Shown: positions 1 through 6,219 of the stretch, piece by piece
How the letters are laid out: the number at the start of each line of letters is the position of its first letter
Numbering within the stretch: the first letter of the stretch is position 1
Position numbers and translations under genes: made by a program
Origin: a phage
Length of the DNA: 64,000 bases
Direction: 5' to 3' (one strand)
Sequence record: PZ379176.1
The notes under the pieces: generated by a model
What the model saw: only the letters and a program-made list of their open reading frames with translations
Told to the model about the DNA's origin: nothing
Databases searched by the model: none

Positions 1-63
1 TGTTTAGTGAGTTTGATGGTCAGTATAAAATCATCACACTCCCTGCTTGTGCTTGAGGTTATT

Positions 64-228
64 ATGTTCAAGTGGTTTAAACGTTTCTTCCATCTCCATG
101 ATTGGGAGACAATAAAAGAAGTTCGTTTACACATATATAATGAGATTGGTCAAATAGAAGACACAGGTACTCGTTATATACTTCGATGTAAAACATGTGG
201 TCATATCACCAAGCGAGATATGATCTAA
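64..228 (+). CDS. hypothetical small protein with C-terminal CxxC (start trimmed to first ATG of track ORF 7..228)
   Basis: ORF track 7..228; internal ATG at 64; CKTCGH motif near C-terminus. Confidence 0.35.
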   Translation: MFKWFKRFFHLHDWETIKEVRLHIYNEIGQIEDTGTRYILRCKTCGHITKRDMI

Positions 229-236
229 ATAATTCT

Positions 237-312
237 GCGCTCTTAGCTCAATGGATAGAGCAGTAGCCTTCTAAGCTATTGGTTACAGGTTCGAGTCCTG
301 TAGGGCGCACCA
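237..312 (+). tRNA. tRNA-Arg (anticodon UCU)
   Basis: Hand-folded cloverleaf: acceptor GCGCTCT/AGGGCGC (one G-U), D-arm GCTC/GAGC, anticodon stem GTAGC/GCTAT with loop CTTCTAA (anticodon TCT), T-arm ACAGG-TTCGAGT-CCTGT, discriminator A and encoded CCA at 310-312. Confidence 0.9.
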
Positions 313-318
313 CATTTA

Positions 319-432
319 GGGCTAGTATGGGTGCGGCACCAGAGTTAGTGTATCCCTGTTGAGGCAAGTGCTTTTATAACAGTGGGAATTACTTTCTTAG
401 TGAGCTTCTGGTTCGATTCCAGATAGTCCACC
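319..432 (+). ncRNA. tRNA-like element: canonical T-arm (TCTGG-TTCGATT-CCAGA at 407-423) plus acceptor-like 3' strand and CCA, but no canonical cloverleaf can be built; 5' boundary uncertain
   Basis: T-loop TTCGATT with 5-bp stem; GGGCTAG at 319-325 pairs 6/7 with ATAGTCC at 423-429, but the span (about 112 nt) is too long for a standard tRNA. Confidence 0.3.
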
Positions 433-452
433 AAATCTAATAGGAGGTAATT

Positions 453-752
453 ATGAGTTGGGGTGGTGTAATATCCTTAATCTGTATCTTCCTTGTCTGC
501 ATAGCCCTTACAGGCTGCGTACAGAGCCGTCCTGATGGATGGTGTGCAGTAGCAGTGGAAGGTGTTTGTGTTTCTCGCTGGTATAAGGGTGAGAAGATTC
601 CTTCTGGTGAAATTGATATGCGATGGAACGGAGCAACCTGTTCTAATGCTAACCCTTCTATCAACGAAGAGAAGTCTACGCCAGACAATGTTGTGATTGA
701 TACAGCGTTGTGGTGTGGTGGCTCTGTAACAACAACCGGTAAGGAGTGGTGA
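453..752 (+). CDS. predicted secreted lipoprotein (signal peptide with lipobox LTGC), Cys-rich
   Basis: AGGAGG RBS at 441-446, ATG 453; hydrophobic N-terminus followed by L-T-G-C lipobox; six further Cys. Confidence 0.6.
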   Translation: MSWGGVISLICIFLVCIALTGCVQSRPDGWCAVAVEGVCVSRWYKGEKIPSGEIDMRWNGATCSNANPSINEEKSTPDNVVIDTALWCGGSVTTTGKEW

Positions 753-753
753 T

Positions 754-951
754 ATGAATTACACATCCACAAAGGTGTTAATTGATTCAATTAATAGCTC
801 CTCAGAAGCTGTACAGGAGCGTTTAATACAAGATGTTAGCAATGACATTAAGTTCTTTGTTAAGAGCCGCCTGTTAGGTTCTAAGGCTTATTACAGAGCT
901 AAAGCAGAGCTTACAAAGAGGGTGTTTCTTTTACATGGTTTGGTATATTAA
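754..951 (+). CDS. hypothetical protein
   Basis: ORF track; tightly packed after upstream gene. Confidence 0.4.
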   Translation: MNYTSTKVLIDSINSSSEAVQERLIQDVSNDIKFFVKSRLLGSKAYYRAKAELTKRVFLLHGLVY

Positions 952-960
952 GGAACTTAT

Positions 961-1182
961 ATGAAACTAGACTCTAAGCAGTCACTTAAAACCGTTGAGC
1001 TGTCCACGCTGCCAAACGGAAGTATTTTTGGTCATGATAAACACTTCTGGATTAAAACAGACATCATAGACGATGGATATATCACCTGTGTCAATCTTTG
1101 GAACGGTTCAGTGGATGGTTATCGCCCTAGCGCAAAGGTAGTCCCTCAGCCTGATGCTAAGGCTGTAGGTTTAGTTTACTAA
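961..1182 (+). CDS. hypothetical protein, member of small paralog family (see 2576-3574)
   Basis: N-terminal pattern K..TV.LS.LP.G..F shared with the four tandem ORFs at 2576-3574. Confidence 0.5.
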   Translation: MKLDSKQSLKTVELSTLPNGSIFGHDKHFWIKTDIIDDGYITCVNLWNGSVDGYRPSAKVVPQPDAKAVGLVY

Positions 1183-1191
1183 GGAGTTCAT

Positions 1192-1365
1192 ATGAGCTGT
1201 TATGGTGGCGGTGAAGTGTGTGATGACGACGACATGGAATCCAATGGTACATGCCCTGACTGTGGGTGTGAGACATTTGATGGAGTGTCAGTATACCCTG
1301 CCTGTAGTTACTCACCAGTGATCTGTAAAACATGTGGAGATCAACCTTGTGACCAGTCTTGTTAG
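1192..1365 (+). CDS. small Cys-rich (zinc-ribbon-like) protein, 57 aa, not in ORF track
   Basis: AAGGAG RBS then ATG 1192; translation contains CPDCGC and CKTCGDQPCDQSC; stop TAG 1363-1365. Confidence 0.4.
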   Translation: MSCYGGGEVCDDDDMESNGTCPDCGCETFDGVSVYPACSYSPVICKTCGDQPCDQSC

Positions 1366-1366
1366 T

Positions 1367-1591
1367 ATGTTAATAGCCTATCTGATAGGATCAGTAGTAT
1401 CAGGTGTTCTGATTAAGATTATAGATGTTAAAGGTAATCAGTGTTTCAGAGGTTGGGATGGTGAGCCAGACCTCGGAAAGATAGCAGCTATGGTTTTCTT
1501 GTGGCCTATTATTGCTGTACTATTTATAGCACTCGTATCATGGGCTGCTCTTTGGGATTTCATCCTTCCTAACAAAAAGTATGAGGACTAA
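1367..1591 (+). CDS. small membrane protein (two hydrophobic helices)
   Basis: Track ORF 1334..1591 trimmed to ATG 1367; strongly hydrophobic segments. Confidence 0.45.
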   Translation: MLIAYLIGSVVSGVLIKIIDVKGNQCFRGWDGEPDLGKIAAMVFLWPIIAVLFIALVSWAALWDFILPNKKYED

Positions 1592-1722
1592 TGACTGAAG
1601 AATTTTTAAAGTGGTTTGGTGATACCTTCAAAGAGTATCTATTCTCTCCAGAAGACTTTGAAGAACTGAAAACCTACACTTGGTTGGCTTGGAGAGATAG
1701 CCGACGAGAGATGAATAAGTAA
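1591..1722 (+). CDS. hypothetical small protein (43 aa)
   Basis: ATG overlapping upstream stop (TAATG); in-frame to TAA 1720-1722. Confidence 0.3.
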   Translation: MTEEFLKWFGDTFKEYLFSPEDFEELKTYTWLAWRDSRREMNK

Positions 1723-2255
1723 TATCGTGAAGGATTCTTACGAGAGTCCTTTGAGATAGGACTTCAGATCTCCTATCAAACTAACATTCATGTAACTAGC
1801 CCATAAGGGCGTTACCCTTTAATAACCCAGCCCACTAAGGGGGCGGGAGTTTAGTGCTGGATTAGCATAACGCTTATTCCTACAAAGGCAACCGATTGTT
1901 AGGTCTTACATGCAATATTAATTAATAGGATAAGGGAGGATTCGTCCCCTCCCCTATTCATAAACTATTAGGAGAGTACATTAGCTGATTAGCTGTGGAA
2001 GGTAGGCCGATATCTACAGCGTGGCCCAGAGCTAGTGTACTCCCCAATAACTTTAGGGTAAATGTGGAACAACCTTTTAATTACAGGTATAGCTTATGGG
2101 ACTCAGTAATGCAGAGTCTACGGTAAAGCAGTCGCCCGTGGTCGAATGACCGTATGCCCATTGGATGCATTCCTTTGGTGATGGCTAGGGAGTCCGAGCG
2201 TAGGTTCGAATCCTACACCTGTAACCAAATTGAATAATAGCTAATTGGAGGATGT
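1723..2255 (+). ncRNA. 530-bp ORF-free structured region ending in a tRNA-like 3' end (T-arm GTAGG-TTCGAAT-CCTAC, acceptor ACCTGTA, discriminator A, CCA at 2225-2227); candidate unusual or interrupted tRNA, or other structured RNA
   Basis: No ORF of 60 aa or more; perfect 7-nt acceptor complement TACAGGT at 2082-2088; hairpins at 1755-1777 and 1933-1952; no canonical cloverleaf found by hand. Confidence 0.3.
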
Positions 2256-2567
2256 ATGAAAGCACGAAGAACTATATGGACTCCGATGCAGATTGAAAAT
2301 CTTCGGAGACTAATCAAAGAGTACTCGGTTCAAGAAGTTGCTCAGATTATGAATGTAACGGAGAATGCAGTTAACGCAGCTTGTACTAAATTCGGAATAT
2401 CAAGAGCTTCAATCCGAGTTAAATGGTCTGAAGAAGAAGACCAGTTCCTTATCCGTAATGCTGGGTTCATGTCTATTCAGAGAATGGCTGACATGCTCGG
2501 TAGAAGTTATGCTGCTGTACAGAACAGAGCATGTATGCACCTTAACATTAGCCTCAAACTTAAATAG
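2256..2567 (+). CDS. putative DNA-binding regulator with two tandem helix-turn-helix-like repeats
   Basis: GGAGG RBS; repeated segments SVQEVAQIMNVTENAVNAA and MSIQRMADMLGRSYAAVQNRA. Confidence 0.5.
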   Translation: MKARRTIWTPMQIENLRRLIKEYSVQEVAQIMNVTENAVNAACTKFGISRASIRVKWSEEEDQFLIRNAGFMSIQRMADMLGRSYAAVQNRACMHLNISLKLK

Positions 2568-2575
2568 GAATCAAT

Positions 2576-2830
2576 ATGAAAGTTAACGAATTGAACAAAA
2601 CTATCAAGACTGTGAAACTCCACACTCTGAAGAAGGGCGATACCTTCCGGCTGGAAGAGAACGGTCCAATTCATATGGTCTGTACTGCGGCATCTACTAA
2701 TTGGGTAGAAGTTGCACGAGATCGAGTCGTGTGTGTCAGACTGGAAGATGGACACTTAAGTGGCCCCGTTGAGGGCATCTCTGTTATTCCTGTTAAGGTT
2801 GAAGCTAACGTTATTAAGGATTCTAAATGA
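2576..2830 (+). CDS. hypothetical protein, tandem paralog 1 of 4
   Basis: Four consecutive 81-84 aa ORFs with overlapping stop/start codons and a shared N-terminal pattern. Confidence 0.55.
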   Translation: MKVNELNKTIKTVKLHTLKKGDTFRLEENGPIHMVCTAASTNWVEVARDRVVCVRLEDGHLSGPVEGISVIPVKVEANVIKDSK

Positions 2831-3078
2831 AGATTACCCACAAGAAAGAAGAAGTGACCACGATTGATCTCAACTCCCTCCCCAGCGGAGCAGTGTTTAA
2901 ATTCCCTGAGAGTGCTACTCTCTATGTTAAAGGGTCTGTGTCTGAAAGTCCTAATGTAACCGTTAACTCTGATCGAACAATTACTCTTCGTCTATCCGAT
3001 GGTAACGTAACAGCACCTTCTATCTGGTGCCGAGTTGTTCCTGTATCAGCAGAACTTTTGGTGGATAATACGCAATGA
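2827..3078 (+). CDS. hypothetical protein, tandem paralog 2 of 4
   Basis: As above; ATGA stop/start overlap. Confidence 0.55.
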   Translation: MKITHKKEEVTTIDLNSLPSGAVFKFPESATLYVKGSVSESPNVTVNSDRTITLRLSDGNVTAPSIWCRVVPVSAELLVDNTQ

Positions 3079-3320
3079 AAATCATCCCAAAGAAAAAGGA
3101 TAATACGGTACGATTGGAAACAATCATTCCCGGAAACCCTTTCGTGGTTCAGAACGGAAGTGCCTCTCCTCAGTATTACATGAGGGTTGAAAATGCTTCT
3201 GGTAACATCCGTATAGCCAGTGGTTGGGTTCCTGTGGTAAACCTTTCCACAGGTGTGTTATCTGTTAAAGGTCTTGATGATCAGGTAGAAATGATTCGTA
3301 TGTCAGTGGTTCAGGAGTAG
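3075..3320 (+). CDS. hypothetical protein, tandem paralog 3 of 4
   Basis: As above. Confidence 0.55.
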   Translation: MKIIPKKKDNTVRLETIIPGNPFVVQNGSASPQYYMRVENASGNIRIASGWVPVVNLSTGVLSVKGLDDQVEMIRMSVVQE

Positions 3321-3574
3321 TGCATATGAGCATTATTAACATTAAAGTTAAAGACAAAGAGGAAAAAATCCTCCGCGTCAGAGATCTAAATATGTCAGAT
3401 GTGTTCACTCTCCAAGAGTGCCAAAATCAAAAGGTTTATATGATGACAGCTAAAAGCAGGGGTTGTCAACCTGCTGGAGCTGTTAACCTAGGCACTGGAG
3501 AACTACGTGTCATCTCTGGTGATATGGTTGTTGGTGAGAAGTTTATTAAGGCTGAAATCATCTTAACTTCGTAG
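3320..3574 (+). CDS. hypothetical protein, tandem paralog 4 of 4 (more diverged)
   Basis: As above. Confidence 0.5.
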   Translation: MHMSIINIKVKDKEEKILRVRDLNMSDVFTLQECQNQKVYMMTAKSRGCQPAGAVNLGTGELRVISGDMVVGEKFIKAEIILTS

Positions 3575-3806
3575 GGAAAACAAATGAGACGTAAAGCATA
3601 TTCTTATGACGATATGATTAACCAGAAAGGCTTCGGTCAACGACAGCCTGACGGTTCAATTATCTGGTTCGTAAACGGACAGAAAAAGGTAGCTAAATAA
3701 GCCCTCTTCTCTCCTCCTTTTAGTACTATGACGCCTCTCTGTGGGCGGCCCGATTTGCGTAGGGAATTCCCTCTACGCAGCCATAATTTTTTAAGGAATT
3801 TCCCCT

Positions 3807-4040
3807 ATGTCTAAAGTAAGCGCAATCGATGCAATCCGTCAACCGTTTCAGTTCCAATCCAAATCAACCCAAACCTTCAGCGAACCTAAGCAAATTCGCT
3901 TGGGTGGTACAGAGAAGACTGTGTTTGATCTGGCTAAAAACAAGAGCGTTACCGTAGTTGATGGTGGCACTCTGGTTAACGTTTCTCATCGCATCCGCAC
4001 TGGCAAAACTGCCAAAGATCGTGCTAAGAAAGGTGAGTGA
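3807..4040 (+). CDS. hypothetical protein
   Basis: ORF track; preceded by GGGAATTCCC palindrome and T-run. Confidence 0.45.
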   Translation: MSKVSAIDAIRQPFQFQSKSTQTFSEPKQIRLGGTEKTVFDLAKNKSVTVVDGGTLVNVSHRIRTGKTAKDRAKKGE

Positions 4041-4255
4041 TGATAACACTTGTGTCTGTAGTTTACAGATTACACTATCGCCTAGATAAAGGAAAATCTT
4101 ATAAATGCAAGAGTAAGACAGGGAATCTATGCTCTGTAGAGAACAACTCTGGTCAATGGGTGAATGTTCCTTGTTGCTGGTTCAGGAAAGATTTGACTAG
4201 CAAAGAGATTGACGAAATTCTTAGTGATGATTTTGTAAAATCAGGTGATTTTTAG
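4037..4255 (+). CDS. hypothetical Cys-containing protein
   Basis: ORF track; ATGA overlap with upstream gene. Confidence 0.4.
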   Translation: MMITLVSVVYRLHYRLDKGKSYKCKSKTGNLCSVENNSGQWVNVPCCWFRKDLTSKEIDEILSDDFVKSGDF

Positions 4256-4270
4256 TTGTAGTAACGCCTA

Positions 4271-4290
4271 TAGCCTTCTTCGGAGGGCTA
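4271..4290 (+). other. 8-bp GC-rich hairpin with UUCG tetraloop immediately after gene 4037..4255
   Basis: TAGCCTTC-TTCG-GAGGGCTA; no clear T-run after it. Confidence 0.5.
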
Positions 4291-4411
4291 TGTGAGTTAT
4301 TCTGACTCAACTAACCTAATCTTAATATATTTCCCGTATGGGGCCGATGCTAGGGAGAGGAACATTCCTCGAACATCCGTCGGATAGATATTTTAAGAGC
4401 AGGTTATCCAC

Positions 4412-4439
4412 AGATATTGGGTAATATCTTTTTGTATTT
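4412..4439 (+). terminator. rho-independent terminator candidate
   Basis: AGATATT-GGGT-AATATCT hairpin followed by TTTTGTATTT. Confidence 0.5.
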
Positions 4440-4446
4440 AAAGCTT

Positions 4447-4471
4447 GACTCTTTTCGGAGAGTCCTTTTTT
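4447..4471 (+). terminator. rho-independent terminator candidate
   Basis: GACTCT-TTTCGG-AGAGTC hairpin followed by CTTTTTT. Confidence 0.5.
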
Positions 4472-4490
4472 AAATTCAACGAGAGGAAAT

Positions 4491-4643
4491 ATGTCTAAAT
4501 TAGATTTAAAACTGCTAGCAGCAGCGGTAGTGATTTGTGCACTAGCACTGGTAACGCAGAGAACATCTGGATTTATTCAGTGTTTCTTTTCTGGGCAATC
4601 CACTTATCAGTGGGTTATTGACGAGTGTAAACAACAGGAGTAA
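4491..4643 (+). CDS. small hydrophobic protein (50 aa), not in ORF track
   Basis: RBS GAGAGGAAAT then ATG 4491; hydrophobic N-terminus. Confidence 0.35.
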   Translation: MSKLDLKLLAAAVVICALALVTQRTSGFIQCFFSGQSTYQWVIDECKQQE

Positions 4644-4645
4644 GT

Positions 4646-5008
4646 ATGAATACACGTCCCATCAAGGGCAACGTTAATATTGAAACTCTGAACAAGGTTG
4701 CATCAAACCTCGGTGGTATGTCCAACGAAGAGCTTGAGCAAGAACTTGCTTGGATTGCAAATGGTATCAAGGTTGCTAAAGGTAAGATTGCTCGTGAGCA
4801 AAGTAACATGAAAGCTCATAAGTATCTAATCCATCGTGCAAACGTGTTACCGGATCGGGTTGTACATCTTGCCCGTAAAAACTACGCAGAAGCAAAGAAA
4901 GCTCTGGAAGAAGCTGAGTTCCAGAAGCATCAATTTATGAACAACTATCGAAACTTCCGAGATATTCTTTATATTCGTAAGTCGATTGAGTTGATTAAAA
5001 ACCAATAG
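4646..5008 (+). CDS. hypothetical protein
   Basis: ORF track. Confidence 0.5.
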   Translation: MNTRPIKGNVNIETLNKVASNLGGMSNEELEQELAWIANGIKVAKGKIAREQSNMKAHKYLIHRANVLPDRVVHLARKNYAEAKKALEEAEFQKHQFMNNYRNFRDILYIRKSIELIKNQ

Positions 5009-5019
5009 AGGTTGGTATA

Positions 5020-6219
5020 ATGTTTCCAGTAACATTAGAAGATACTGAAGGTAATATTTTAACAGTCAACCCTCCTTGTTATGGGTTCCTTCAGCTTCGC
5101 AACTATAACGGTGGCGTTGATGAAGACGATGAAGAGTATGATGACTACTTCGACCCTAACATGTATGAGGCAACTCATGGATGGAATATGCACGTTCGAG
5201 TGTGGCATGAAGAAGCTAACGTTCGTAGTGCTGATGGGGAAGAGTTCCTGTTAAGCCGAGAGATGGATATGTGTAAAATCAAGCATATCTGGAACTCTGG
5301 AACTCATATGAAGATGTTAGGTTTTAGACGTTGGCGTGATGAAAAGCATGTAGCTGAAGCTTTAAGTTGGTGTTCGTATGAAGATGAAGACACGCCCCCT
5401 AAGAACAACATCGAACGTTGGAACGACAAAAACCCTGAGCATCGAACCACACCTCGTGCTGTACTGGAAGCTATGGAAGCATTTGTGGACAAAGATCGTC
5501 CCTCCTGTTTACGCTGGCACGATAAAGGTTTTATGGGGGTAGCAACTGAGAATATCCCTGCTGATCGTTGTCTGTTCTATTTGATGTTAGACCGAACCTT
5601 CTATTGTGAAGATGAAGAGAGTCAAGTTGAAACCTTCCTCCATAAATGGTTGGTTGAAGGCTGGACAATCCTTCAGGCTTATGTTTACTCACGAATGGTT
5701 AGCACTTACACTAACCTCTTGGGAGAAAAGAAAGCAACTCTGGTTGGTAACGATTGGGATGCTTGTATCTTCCCAGCGTCGCTATTTACAGTCGGCATGG
5801 CTGATAAATACGCTGAAGCATTTCAAGTGCCTTGGCGTCAACAGTCATATAGAGATGGATGCGGTCATTTCCGTGATGAAGACTTTAAGTGGATTCATTA
5901 CGAGAATGATGAAACAGCAGAATTACGAGTTAACAACTCAATGTTCTTGCCAGTGATGCACCCCGATCTAGTAAAAGACGGGTCAGAGACACTTAAAGGT
6001 GATAATCTTTTGGTTAACTTTACCCGTCGCGTGTCTAAAAATGAGAAAACAGCTAACAGGTTAATCTACGGCATTCGTGCCGAGGCTAAAGACCTGTTCA
6101 ACATCTACAACATCATTCAGCGATTTAGTAGTGGAACTCTGGACCAAAGTTCGGAGTATTCAGTGATTCCGTCCTCTGAGTGGGATGGTATTATGAGCGG
6201 ATTATTTTTAGGAAAATAA
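5020..6219 (+). CDS. hypothetical protein (399 aa), first gene of the amidoligase-containing cluster
   Basis: ORF track; no motif recognised; contiguous with downstream ligase genes. Confidence 0.5.
   Translation: MFPVTLEDTEGNILTVNPPCYGFLQLRNYNGGVDEDDEEYDDYFDPNMYEATHGWNMHVRVWHEEANVRSADGEEFLLSREMDMCKIKHIWNSGTHMKMLGFRRWRDEKHVAEALSWCSYEDEDTPPKNNIERWNDKNPEHRTTPRAVLEAMEAFVDKDRPSCLRWHDKGFMGVATENIPADRCLFYLMLDRTFYCEDEESQVETFLHKWLVEGWTILQAYVYSRMVSTYTNLLGEKKATLVGNDWDACIFPASLFTVGMADKYAEAFQVPWRQQSYRDGCGHFRDEDFKWIHYENDETAELRVNNSMFLPVMHPDLVKDGSETLKGDNLLVNFTRRVSKNEKTANRLIYGIRAEAKDLFNIYNIIQRFSSGTLDQSSEYSVIPSSEWDGIMSGLFLGK

What the first reader, a model, noticed from the sequence alone, without database searches (positions are those of the whole stretch)
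1723..2255. Large structured ORF-free region ending in a tRNA 3' half
About 530 bp without any ORF of 60 aa or more, inside an otherwise tightly packed early region. It ends with a textbook T-arm, acceptor strand, discriminator and CCA (2200-2227), whose perfect 7-nt partner TACAGGT lies 143 nt upstream (2082-2088). Several stable hairpins lie further upstream. Candidate explanations are a tRNA interrupted by an insertion or intron-like element, a tRNA-derived regulatory RNA, or another structured non-coding RNA.
Basis: seen in the sequence. Interest (0 to 1): 0.6.

Follow-up and report, generated by a model that had tools for sequence, protein, structure and literature searches.

The report
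Phage gene for tRNA-like small RNA
The gap between two early genes of this phiEco32-like coliphage holds unannotated, structured RNA modules, the last being a 146-base tRNA-shaped RNA that cannot read codons and that also occurs, nearly identical, inside the tRNA gene cluster of unrelated N4-like phages.

Summary
Window 2082-2227 has a 7-bp acceptor stem, a canonical T-arm, discriminator A and an encoded CCA, closing a 146-nt unit. It is not a decoding tRNA, an intron-containing tRNA, a tmRNA or any Rfam family. Seven homologues show three compensatory base-pair changes: acceptor stem, a hairpin inserted in the D-loop, and an inner hairpin. In Klebsiella N4-like phages the same 146 nt (95% identical) fills the space between tRNA-Tyr and tRNA-Ser, and homology ends within 3 nt of the RNA's ends. 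So the RNA itself is the transferred unit. A 124-nt sister family in N4-like coliphages shares the UA...UAACCA ends, the T-arm and the D-arm-with-hairpin design; it has no anticodon arm.

Best reading: a gene for a non-decoding, class-II-tRNA-like stable RNA, cut from the early transcript by tRNA-processing enzymes (inferred). It probably acts by tRNA mimicry. The closest known analogue is T4 RNAC, whose function is still unknown.

The rest of the gap (1723-2081) is also conserved structured RNA, shared with N4-like phages. Function is untested and expression was not checked. This is a new variant of a known kind, of moderate interest.

The parts
2082..2227 (+). Module C: 146-nt tRNA-like RNA gene (predicted mature RNA from U2082 to the encoded CCA at 2225-2227)
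   Evidence: Sequence. Homology to Klebsiella N4-like phages covers 2079-2231 only. In HS106 the unit sits exactly between tRNA-Tyr and tRNA-Ser. Three compensatory pairs. CM of the 124-nt sister family aligns it end to end, 36.4 bits, E about 7e-8.
2082..2088 (+). Acceptor stem 5' strand UACAGGU, pairs with 2217-2223
   Evidence: 7/7 Watson-Crick pairs; pair 6:137 is G-C in kuraviruses and A-U in the Klebsiella phages.
2090..2129 (+). D-arm analogue: D-stem GCUU (2092-2095) / AAGC (2126-2129), with a D-loop carrying GG (2122-2123) and an inserted hairpin
   Evidence: Inferred. Invariant, so there is no covariation. The sequence with H1 removed matches the D-arm of the 76-nt tRNA-like L044:2661-2736, and the same design is seen in the 124-nt family. 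It competes with the alifold helix 2120-2123/2136-2139.
2099..2119 (+). Hairpin H1 (6 bp, 9-nt loop with invariant UAAUGCA), inserted in the D-loop
   Evidence: Compensatory change A-U to G-C at 20:36 in FH3 and XT32.
2138..2153 (+). Hairpin H3 (GGUC-GAAU-GACC, extendable by U58-G71 and G57-U72)
   Evidence: alifold. G71A in HS106 turns U-G into U-A; loop position 63 varies G/A.
2158..2178 (+). Hairpin H4 (CCA-UU-GGA UGCAU UCC-UU-UGG)
   Evidence: Compensatory change A-U to G-C at 84:90 in XT32.
2184..2199 (+). Hairpin H5, next to the T-arm, in the position of a class II long variable arm
   Evidence: alifold. Sequence-similar to the 3' half of the long arm of the 124-nt family. No covariation.
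2200..2216 (+). T-arm GUAGG-UUCGAAU-CCUAC
   Evidence: Only part that matches Rfam tRNA (local 14.8 bits, model positions 44-63).
2217..2227 (+). Acceptor 3' strand ACCUGUA, discriminator A, encoded CCA
   Evidence: Sequence. CCA is followed by AAU(U), as after every tRNA of the HS106/L007 clusters.
1974..2042 (+). Module B: 69-nt long hairpin with conserved internal loops
   Evidence: 9 distinct homologues from kuraviruses and N4-like phages; 23 pairs, 6 with compensatory changes and none broken by substitution. In N4-like phages it precedes a tmRNA-like tag region.
1723..1958 (+). Module A: multi-hairpin conserved block. Hairpins at 1729-1752 and 1755-1777, a variable middle, near-invariant TTGTTAGGTCTTACATGCAA at 1896-1915, and a GC-rich hairpin GGGAGG/CCTCCC at 1934-1953.
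   Evidence: Present in about 160 phage records, including N4-like Gamaleyavirus. Hairpin 1755-1777 has two compensatory pairs between the families. The GC hairpin is annotated as a terminator in phage 4E8.

Best explanation
Window 2082-2227 is a gene for a 146-nt non-decoding tRNA-like small RNA. It keeps the parts of a tRNA that processing and binding factors recognise. These are a 7-bp acceptor stem stacked on a canonical T-arm, a D-arm with the GG that docks on the T-loop, discriminator A73 and an encoded CCA. A 21-nt hairpin is inserted in the D-loop. The anticodon arm is replaced by a set of hairpins, and a hairpin next to the T-arm sits where class II tRNAs carry their long variable arm. 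The gene lies inside the early, host-RNA-polymerase-transcribed operon. I infer that it is released like a tRNA: RNase P cuts 5' of U2082, and RNase E plus 3' exonucleases trim the AU-rich trailer back to CCA. The same cuts would separate the upstream and downstream mRNAs. It is a self-contained cassette that moves between the tRNA/RNA islands of unrelated enterobacterial podophages (Kuravirus and N4-like Schitoviridae). Because it has no anticodon, the most likely mode of action is tRNA mimicry. It would occupy or titrate a host factor that recognises the tRNA elbow, acceptor end or variable arm. The most plausible targets are tRNA-directed anti-phage nucleases or CCA-end-modifying toxins, which phage tRNAs are already known to counter. 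The RNA-gene identity is well supported; the processing route is inferred; the decoy function is a guess.
For: - Anatomy: sequence as described.
- Structure: 98.6% of cells paired across 7 homologues, with compensatory changes in three separate helices and none in five of six slid controls.
- Changes: the other substitutions fall in loops and junctions or keep pairing as G-U, apart from four cells that break a pair (HS106 at 40:57, XT32 at 23:33, metagenomic variant L052 at 18:38 and 22:34).
- Unit of transfer: 95-100% identity between Kuravirus and Klebsiella Efbeekayvirus phages is confined to 2079-2231.
- Context in N4-like phages: in HS106, GADU21 and IMG/VR contig L007 the unit lies exactly between tRNA-Tyr...CCA-AAU and tRNA-Ser.
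- Junctions: XT32 and FH3 have a different upstream cassette joined at the same 5' base.
- Sister family: a 124-nt family in N4-like phages has four compensatory pairs, the same UA...UAACCA ends and T-arm, a D-stem with a hairpin in the D-loop followed by GG, and no anticodon arm. Its CM aligns window 2082-2227 end to end at 36.4 bits, and also hits class II tRNA-Ser at about 30 bits.
- D-arm homology to a 76-nt non-decoding tRNA-like gene.
- Not host-derived: no match in 5,426 E. coli genomes or in 185,579 species genomes with a 27-base pattern.
- Precedent: T4 RNAC, a 139-nt RNA with T-arm and acceptor-like stem encoded next to tRNA-Arg, is a real stable RNA of unknown function.
- Phage tRNAs neutralise tRNA-cleaving defences that attack the tRNA-Tyr variable loop (PMC13096335, PMC11555353).
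Against: - No expression, processing or phenotype data exist for any member, and I found no transcriptome of a kuravirus.
- Only 7 distinct sequences, 97% identical. Three compensatory pairs is a small sample, and most helices, including the D-stem, are invariant and therefore untested.
- The nearest-neighbour energy of the cloverleaf-like model (-37.4 kcal/mol) is worse than the MFE (-47.2), and the unit's z-score is only -1.4.
- Divergence of the unit between window and XT32 (11/146) is no lower than that of flanking DNA, so purifying selection on the sequence as a whole is not shown.
- The element is absent from most kuraviruses (13 of roughly 140-160 records), so it is dispensable.
- XT32 has a non-canonical T-loop (UCCGAAC). 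Two lineages encode UCA instead of CCA, and one metagenomic variant breaks two H1 pairs.
- Nothing links it specifically to any defence system.
Confidence: 0.72

Rival explanations
1. Decaying remnant of a tRNA gene cluster. A tRNA gene picked up insertions, lost its anticodon arm and is carried along as neutral DNA acquired by recombination with an N4-like phage. It may still be cut by RNase P but does nothing.
For: Patchy distribution, in 13 phage records only. Divergence is similar to flanking DNA. T-loop U55C in XT32, CCA to UCA in two lineages, and a variant with two broken H1 pairs. N4-like islands are full of other odd 'tRNA-OTHER' genes and of T-arms without CCA.
Against: Three compensatory double substitutions in three helices would not be expected in neutral DNA. 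The 124-nt sister family shows four more. Homology boundaries coincide with the RNA ends in two phage families. Phage genomes this compact rarely keep 146 nt of junk, and the unit is kept in different contexts.
Confidence: 0.12
2. Cis-acting processing signal ('t-element' or tRNA punctuation). The tRNA-like fold exists to recruit RNase P and RNase E so that the early polycistronic transcript is cut upstream of the HTH-regulator gene (2256-2567), setting that mRNA's stability and translation. The excised RNA is a by-product.
For: It lies 28 nt upstream of the start codon of a conserved HTH protein gene, inside an operon with no nearby sigma-70 promoter or terminator call. tRNA-Arg and a second tRNA-like unit are embedded in the same operon.
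Against: In HS106, GADU21 and L007 the same RNA sits between two tRNA genes with no adjacent mRNA to punctuate. Most kuraviruses express the same downstream gene without it. A minimal acceptor/T hairpin would be enough for cleavage, yet hairpins H1 and H4 are maintained by compensatory changes.
Confidence: 0.08
3. tmRNA-related RNA. The unit is the tRNA-like domain of a reduced or split phage tmRNA system and takes part in trans-translation or interferes with it.
For: The architecture (acceptor, T-arm, no anticodon arm, long arm where class II tRNAs have the variable arm) is that of the tmRNA tRNA-like domain; this comparison rests on my own knowledge (Bessho et al. 2007). In N4-like phages the sister 124-nt RNA lies just downstream of module B and of a tmRNA-like tag reading frame, ANDDVVLMAA* or ANEEAYLMVA*. 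That frame shows synonymous change between phages and gives a 33-bit sub-threshold Rfam permuted-tmRNA hit.
Against: Pair 3:70 is C-G (or U-A in UE-S5b), not the G-U needed for alanylation. There is no tmRNA call by ARAGORN or Rfam. The only tag-like frame in the window RNA (GCA GAG UCU ... UGA) changes only non-synonymously, and those changes are explained by RNA pairing. The window lacks the tag cassette altogether. In UE-S5b other cassettes separate the tag region from the 124-nt RNA.
Confidence: 0.05
4. A functional decoding tRNA that carries an intron or insertion which is removed or tolerated, as in the first reader's leading idea and the ARAGORN -i call of tRNA-Val(UAC) with a 49-nt intron.
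For: ARAGORN with introns allowed reports tRNA-Val(UAC) at 2082-2227.
Against: The proposed anticodon stem (CAGAG/CUUUG) overlaps the 3' strand of H1, which covaries with 2101. The third 'anticodon' base is C, U or A in different phages. Its D-stem is mostly mismatched. There is no group I intron signature, and 49 nt is far below the size of any self-splicing intron. Bacteria lack a bulge-helix-bulge splicing endonuclease (established knowledge). With H1 deleted in silico ARAGORN calls a different tRNA (Arg CCU), so the call is unstable.
Confidence: 0.03

Closest known systems
Bacteriophage T4 RNAC (species 1 RNA, rnaC) and RNAD
   Same: A roughly 140-nt non-coding RNA encoded with phage tRNA genes. 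T4 has tRNA-Arg(UCU) followed by rnaD and rnaC; this window has tRNA-Arg(UCU) followed by a 119-nt tRNA-like unit, with this RNA 1.8 kb downstream. It closes with an acceptor-like stem plus a canonical T-arm and has a non-tRNA core. The biological role is still unknown (PMC3014915, PMC9697503).
   Different: No sequence or CM similarity: R1 gives no hit on the T4 locus at E up to 10. T4 RNAC has U-U mismatches in its terminal stem and no encoded CCA. T4 RNAC and RNAD are late RNAs, whereas this gene is in the early operon.
tRNA-like domain of tmRNA (SsrA)
   Same: Acceptor stem + T-arm + CCA, no anticodon arm, and a long helix leaving the core where class II tRNAs have the variable arm. Related phages carry a tag-like reading frame close to the sister RNA.
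   Different: No G3-U70, no tag frame under coding constraint, no pseudoknots detected, and no hit with tmRNA models.
Class II (long-variable-arm) tRNAs and the non-canonical 'tRNA-OTHER' genes of N4-like phages
   Same: The D-arm sequence, T-arm, UAC...GUA-A-CCA acceptor end and the CCA-AAU(U) spacing are shared with a 76-nt tRNA-like gene of UE-S5b. The CM of the sister family also scores tRNA-Ser at about 30 bits.
   Different: No 5-bp anticodon stem with a 7-nt loop. About 70 extra nucleotides. Rejected by ARAGORN in standard mode and by Rfam tRNA (14.8 bits against a threshold of 29).
tRNA-like processing elements and scaffolds (plant mitochondrial t-elements, MALAT1 mascRNA, engineered tRNA scaffolds for recombinant RNA)
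   Same: A tRNA-shaped fold embedded in a longer transcript that recruits RNase P and protects or defines RNA ends (own knowledge; PMC1920247 and PMC3753655 appeared).
   Different: Those are cis signals or artificial constructs. This one is a free-standing cassette that also sits between tRNA genes, with its non-tRNA hairpins kept by compensatory change.

Membership tests
tRNA (Rfam RF00005) | Score at or above the family gathering threshold (29 bits) | tested here: not met
   No hit in gathering or E<=10 scans of 1-6000 apart from tRNA-Arg. In a 186-nt scan only the T-arm matches locally at 14.8 bits.
tRNA (Rfam RF00005) | Anticodon arm: 5-bp stem with a 7-nt loop and a conserved anticodon | tested here: not met
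   ARAGORN standard mode finds nothing. The intron-mode model conflicts with covarying H1 and has a variable 'anticodon'.
tRNA (Rfam RF00005) | 7-bp acceptor stem, discriminator, CCA, and a T-arm with UUCRANY loop and G53-C61 | tested here: met
   2082-2088/2217-2223, A2224, CCA 2225-2227, GUAGG-UUCGAAU-CCUAC.
tRNA (Rfam RF00005) | D-arm with conserved GG able to dock on the T-loop | tested here: inconclusive
   GCUU/AAGC stem and GG at 2122-2123 are present and homologous to the D-arm of a 76-nt relative. They are invariant, however, and compete with another predicted helix.
tRNA with group I (or other) intron | Intron with a self-splicing core, or a spliced product that restores a canonical tRNA | tested here: not met
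   No Intron_gpI or gpII hit. The insert is far too short, and in silico removal of H1 or of the ARAGORN 'intron' does not give a stable canonical tRNA call. Splicing itself is not testable here.
tmRNA (RF00023, permuted and clade-specific models) | G3-U70 wobble pair with A73 (alanine identity) | tested here: not met
   Pair 3:70 is C-G in all 7 sequences, and C-G or U-A in the 124-nt family.
tmRNA (RF00023, permuted and clade-specific models) | Tag reading frame with a resume codon, under coding constraint | tested here: not met
   The tag-ORF scan finds none in the window's RNA region. The frame GCA GAG ... UGA has only non-synonymous differences, which coincide with RNA pairing.
tmRNA (RF00023, permuted and clade-specific models) | Detection by ARAGORN tmRNA mode or an Rfam tmRNA model | tested here: not met
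T4 RNAC-type phage stable RNA (no formal family) | Roughly 120-150-nt RNA closed by an acceptor-like stem next to a T-arm, encoded among phage tRNA genes | tested here: met
   Window anatomy, position between tRNA-Tyr and tRNA-Ser in HS106, GADU21 and L007, and the T4 comparison.
T4 RNAC-type phage stable RNA (no formal family) | Sequence or profile homology to T4 rnaC | tested here: not met
   No similarity by eye, and no hit of CM R1 on the T4 locus.
T4 RNAC-type phage stable RNA (no formal family) | Accumulates as a discrete stable RNA in infected cells | not testable with these tools
   Needs a Northern blot or RNA-seq; no kuravirus transcriptome was found.
YrlA / Y RNA-like (RF02553) | Rfam model hit | tested here: not met
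   No YrlA hit in the window.
YrlA / Y RNA-like (RF02553) | Adjacent rsr (Ro60) gene | not tested
   Neighbouring genes were not searched for rsr; none is named in the ShigP1 annotation stretches read.

The most novel reading that the evidence does not exclude
The 146-nt RNA and its 124-nt sisters form a previously unrecognised class of mobile, non-decoding tRNA mimics carried in the 'RNA islands' of enterobacterial podophages. They would act either as decoys that disarm tRNA-targeting immune nucleases or CCA-modifying toxins without disturbing translation, or as the acceptor-like partner of an unusual split phage trans-translation system. The message part of such a system, a tag frame AN(D/E)(D/E)xxLMxA, survives in N4-like phages but has been lost from this kuravirus.
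Probability: 0.2. Interest if true: 0.85.

Novelty: new variant of a known kind. Interest (0 to 1): 0.55.

Why it matters
Phage tRNA genes are now known to be weapons against tRNA-cleaving defence systems. The odd stable RNAs that travel with them, such as T4 RNAC and RNAD, have had no function for 50 years. This window supplies a second, independent example that can be studied experimentally: a tRNA-shaped RNA without an anticodon, kept by compensatory evolution. It is exchanged as a discrete cassette between two unrelated phage families that infect E. coli, Shigella and Klebsiella, including phages being developed for therapy. None of the GenBank records holding it annotates it as an RNA, and two place hypothetical ORFs, which look spurious, over this non-coding region. 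If it is a decoy or a trans-translation component, it would add a new type of RNA-based counter-defence or translation control. If it is inert, it still marks a hot spot of RNA-cassette shuffling between phage families.

Tried and rejected
- Rfam scans at gathering and permissive thresholds over the window, the 186-nt unit and related loci gave nothing beyond a local T-arm match.
- ARAGORN standard and tmRNA modes found nothing. Its intron mode gives an unstable tRNA-Val call that conflicts with covariation.
- Two 16-mer scans of IMG/VR returned almost only chance hits, as checked by BLAST.
- The 27-base structured pattern found only kuravirus and N4-like contigs in IMG/VR and metagenomes, and nothing in 185,579 species genomes.
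- BLAST against all complete E. coli genomes found no match.
- A long-range helix 2100-2105/2192-2197 and a 'variable arm' helix 2161-2166/2192-2197 were considered. Both tolerate the observed changes only as G-U, and neither explains the second substitution of each compensatory pair, so the local hairpins H1 and H4 are preferred.
- RNAduplex between modules B and C, and between the N4-like tag cassette and the 124-nt RNA, gave no signal above shuffles.
- No sigma-70 promoter or intrinsic terminator was called in 1723-2255 on the + strand.
- Literature searches for phiEco32 tRNA-like RNAs, N4-like tmRNA and a kuravirus transcriptome found no prior description.
- The small ORFs in the gap (43 aa at 1995-2126, 36 aa at 2118-2228 on the minus strand) are not conserved and were dismissed.

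Full report
**Source and setting.** The window is a Kuravirus (phiEco32-like podophage). Region 1500-2500 is 99.8% identical to Shigella phage ShigP1 and 92-98% identical to many Escherichia kuraviruses. All genes here are on the + strand, in the early region. According to the SU10 paper, that region is transcribed by host sigma-70 polymerase from promoters far upstream, without internal terminators (PMC4281155). The gap lies between a 43-aa ORF ending at 1722 and a 103-aa HTH protein gene at 2256-2567. The same gap, of varying length, exists in relatives and carries no RNA annotation in any record I read. Annotated there are only a predicted terminator and promoter in 4E8 and hypothetical ORFs in XT32, GADU21 and PhAPEC7.

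**Check of the observation.**
- The sequence features are exactly as described: TACAGGT at 2082-2088; T-arm GTAGG/TTCGAAT/CCTAC at 2200-2216; ACCTGTA at 2217-2223; A, then CCA to 2227.
- No ORF of 60 aa or more lies in 1723-2255.
- A T-arm followed by CCA occurs only three times in the 64 kb, all in the first 2.3 kb of the + strand.
- Folding energy alone is not impressive: z = -2.7 for the gap and -1.4 for the 146-nt unit. The case has to rest on comparison between genomes.

**The gap is modular**.
- Module A (1723-1958) is present in about 160 phage records, including N4-like Gamaleyavirus.
- Module B (1974-2042) is present in a subset of kuraviruses and in N4-like phages.
- Module C (2082-2227) is present in only 13 records: 11 kuraviruses and two Klebsiella N4-like phages of the genus Efbeekayvirus.
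- Kuraviruses without C (SU10, 4E8) join B or A directly to the ribosome-binding site of the downstream gene.
- XT32 and FH3 carry a different cassette upstream of C, joined at the very base where the RNA starts.

**Module C is a discrete RNA gene.**
- In HS106, GADU21 and IMG/VR contig L007, the 146 nt (95% identical) lie exactly between tRNA-Tyr and tRNA-Ser. They are separated from each by the same CCA-AAU(U) spacer that follows every tRNA of the cluster.
- Homology between the two phage families is limited to 2079-2231.
- Seven distinct sequences differ at 17 columns.
- Six of those columns form three compensatory pairs: 6:137 in the acceptor stem, 20:36 in hairpin H1 and 84:90 in hairpin H4.
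- Most of the other changes are in loops or junctions, or give G-U. Four cells break a pair: 23:33 in XT32, 40:57 in HS106, and 18:38 and 22:34 in metagenomic variant L052. One further change turns the encoded CCA into UCA.
- In the shifted-partner controls, compensatory pairs were 0 in five of six shifts and 1 in the sixth.

**What it is not.**
- No Rfam family reaches even E = 10, apart from a local T-arm match to tRNA at 14.8 bits against a threshold of 29.
- ARAGORN finds no tRNA or tmRNA.
- With introns allowed, ARAGORN proposes tRNA-Val(UAC) with a 49-nt intron. That model's anticodon stem uses the 3' strand of covarying H1, its 'anticodon' third base is C, U or A in different phages, and its D-stem is mostly mismatched.
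- The call changes to tRNA-Arg(CCU) when H1 is deleted in silico.
- No self-splicing intron of this size is known, and bacteria lack the archaeal/eukaryal splicing endonuclease (established knowledge).
- tmRNA membership fails on G3-U70 and on the tag frame.
- There is no homologue in E. coli genomes. No exact match to the 27-base degenerate pattern was found in 185,579 bacterial and archaeal species genomes.

**What it resembles.**
- With H1 removed, the 5' part (UAGCUUAUG-ACGGUAAAGC) matches the D-arm of a 76-nt tRNA-like gene of phage UE-S5b (UAGGCUUAGUGGUAAAGCC). That gene has the same UAC...GUA-A-CCA acceptor end and a 6-nt 'anticodon' loop, so it is non-decoding too.
- A 124-nt family in N4-like phages (KP8, PhAPEC7, UE-S5b and 11 metagenomic or IMG/VR contigs; 9 distinct sequences in all) has these features:
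  - the same end sequences and T-arm;
  - a 4-bp D-stem;
  - a hairpin inserted in the D-loop just before a GG;
  - a 12-nt linker instead of an anticodon arm;
  - a long hairpin two bases before the T-arm.
- It shows four compensatory pairs.
- A covariance model of that family aligns window 2082-2227 end to end (36.4 bits, E about 7e-8). It also scores class II tRNA-Ser genes at about 30 bits, and it does not hit T4 rnaC.
- The common design is therefore a class-II-tRNA-like body without an anticodon arm.
- Confidence by helix: I regard the acceptor stem, H1, the inner part of H4 and the T-arm as supported. H3 is likely, because of a one-sided change that preserves pairing. The D-stem, H2, outer H4 and H5 are undecided. 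The cloverleaf-like model is 10 kcal/mol worse than the MFE in nearest-neighbour terms.

**Mechanism.**
- Shown: a conserved, structured, tRNA-shaped unit with encoded CCA, embedded in a transcription unit and exchanged as a cassette.
- Inferred from established knowledge of E. coli tRNA maturation:
  - RNase P recognises the stacked acceptor/T helix, the T-loop and the RCCA end, and should cut 5' of U2082 (the -1 base is U);
  - the AU-rich trailer is a typical RNase E and exonuclease substrate trimmed back to CCA;
  - these cuts also separate the flanking mRNAs.
- Guessed: the RNA works by tRNA mimicry without decoding. Phage tRNAs rescue infection from retron-Eco7/PtuAB and Septu, which cut the tRNA-Tyr variable loop, and from PARIS (PMC11555353, PMC13096335, PMC10802454). 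A tRNA-shaped RNA that cannot enter translation would be a cheap sponge for such enzymes, or for toxins that modify the CCA end. Nothing here tests that.
- The only E. coli synthetase whose known identity set could conceivably be met is LeuRS, which needs A73 plus core tertiary features and is anticodon-independent (own knowledge). This was not tested.

**Closest known.**
- T4 RNAC is 139 nt, has a T-arm plus an acceptor-like stem, and is encoded after tRNA-Arg and RNAD.
- Its role is still unknown (PMC3014915, PMC9697503).
- The resemblance is architectural only, not homology.

**Rest of the gap.**
- Module B is a 69-nt hairpin with six compensatory pairs among nine kuravirus and N4-like sequences.
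- Module A contains:
  - two 5' hairpins, the second with two compensatory pairs between families;
  - a variable middle in which whole hairpins are swapped;
  - a 20-nt near-invariant block at 1896-1915;
  - a GC-rich hairpin that others annotated as a terminator.
- In N4-like phages the order is A, B, a tmRNA-like tag region, then the 124-nt RNA. The window has A, B, C without the tag.
- The whole ORF-free region thus looks like a piece of an 'RNA island' shared between the two phage families.

**Verdict.**
- The finding is real and the region is not junk.
- Its 3' end is a complete tRNA-like small-RNA gene of a type known in outline from T4. It belongs to an undescribed, horizontally mobile family.
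- Function is open.
- Interest is moderate (0.55): a new variant of a known kind.

Noticed in passing
window 318-436 (+), directly after tRNA-Arg(UCU) at 237-312: A second unannotated tRNA-like unit of about 119 nt. It runs GGGCUA...UCUGG-UUCGAUU-CCAGA-UAGUCC-A-CCA-AAU. Its terminal stem has G1-C, G2-C and G3-U with discriminator A73, which is the alanine/tmRNA-type acceptor identity, but it has no cloverleaf and ARAGORN does not call it. About 30 kuravirus records hold it at 95% identity or more.
   Followed up: partly
L004 (KP8) 2140-2172; L044 (UE-S5b) 1701-1733; L041 (PhAPEC7), tag region between module B and 1897: N4-like coliphages and Klebsiella phages carry a tmRNA-like tag reading frame between module B and the 124-nt tRNA-like RNA. 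It reads ANDDVVLMAA* (with synonymous GCT GCT to GCA GCC between phages) or ANEEAYLMVA*. Rfam permuted-tmRNA scores 33 bits, below its threshold of 47. ARAGORN calls no tmRNA, and I found no paper reporting it. The window lacks this cassette.
   Followed up: partly
window 1974-2042 (+): Module B is a 69-nt hairpin conserved in kuraviruses and N4-like phages. Six base pairs change on both sides and none is broken; the internal loops GAUUA and GCGUGGCCCAG are invariant. Function unknown.
   Followed up: partly
window 1896-1915 and 1934-1953 (+): A 20-nt block, TTGTTAGGTCTTACATGCAA, is almost invariant across two unrelated phage families. It is followed by a GC-rich hairpin (GGGAGG-ATTCGTCC-CCTCCC) without a proper U-tract. 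It gave no call in the sigma-70 scan. It could be an RNA seed plus terminator-like hairpin, or a protein-binding site.
   Followed up: no
window 16961-18274 (+): A 437-aa 'nucleotidyltransferase' (PHROG 12715) with a weak match to the Poly A polymerase / CCA-adding enzyme head domain (PF01743, 18.8 bits, below the cutoff of 23). If it is a tRNA nucleotidyltransferase it could maintain the CCA ends of the phage's tRNA and tRNA-like RNAs. No solved homologue was found by sequence.
   Followed up: partly
L007 (IMG/VR contig), minus strand, about 1290-1175: Another non-tRNA cassette in a tRNA cluster: about 117 nt, closed by UGAAGAGU/ACUCUUCA followed by CCA-AAU, without a T-arm. HS106 has a different odd element with an internal T-arm at the same position.
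   Followed up: no
L048, L053, L061 (124-nt type) and L052, L059 (146-nt type): Two independent lineages encode UAAUCA instead of UAACCA at the 3' end. If the RNA is functional there, its CCA would have to be restored by a CCA-adding enzyme.
   Followed up: no
L012 (GADU21) 1503-1592 minus strand; L010 (XT32) 466-636 minus strand; L041 (PhAPEC7) 1537-1659: GenBank records annotate short hypothetical ORFs over these RNA modules: GADU21 over module C, the others over upstream non-coding sequence. They are probably spurious.
   Followed up: no
L005 (G7C) about 1800-3720: Phage G7C has a roughly 1.9-kb ORF-free island with no ARAGORN tRNA. It holds several T-arm-like motifs lacking CCA, and homologues of module A. 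It may be a larger collection of unusual or decayed RNA genes.
   Followed up: no
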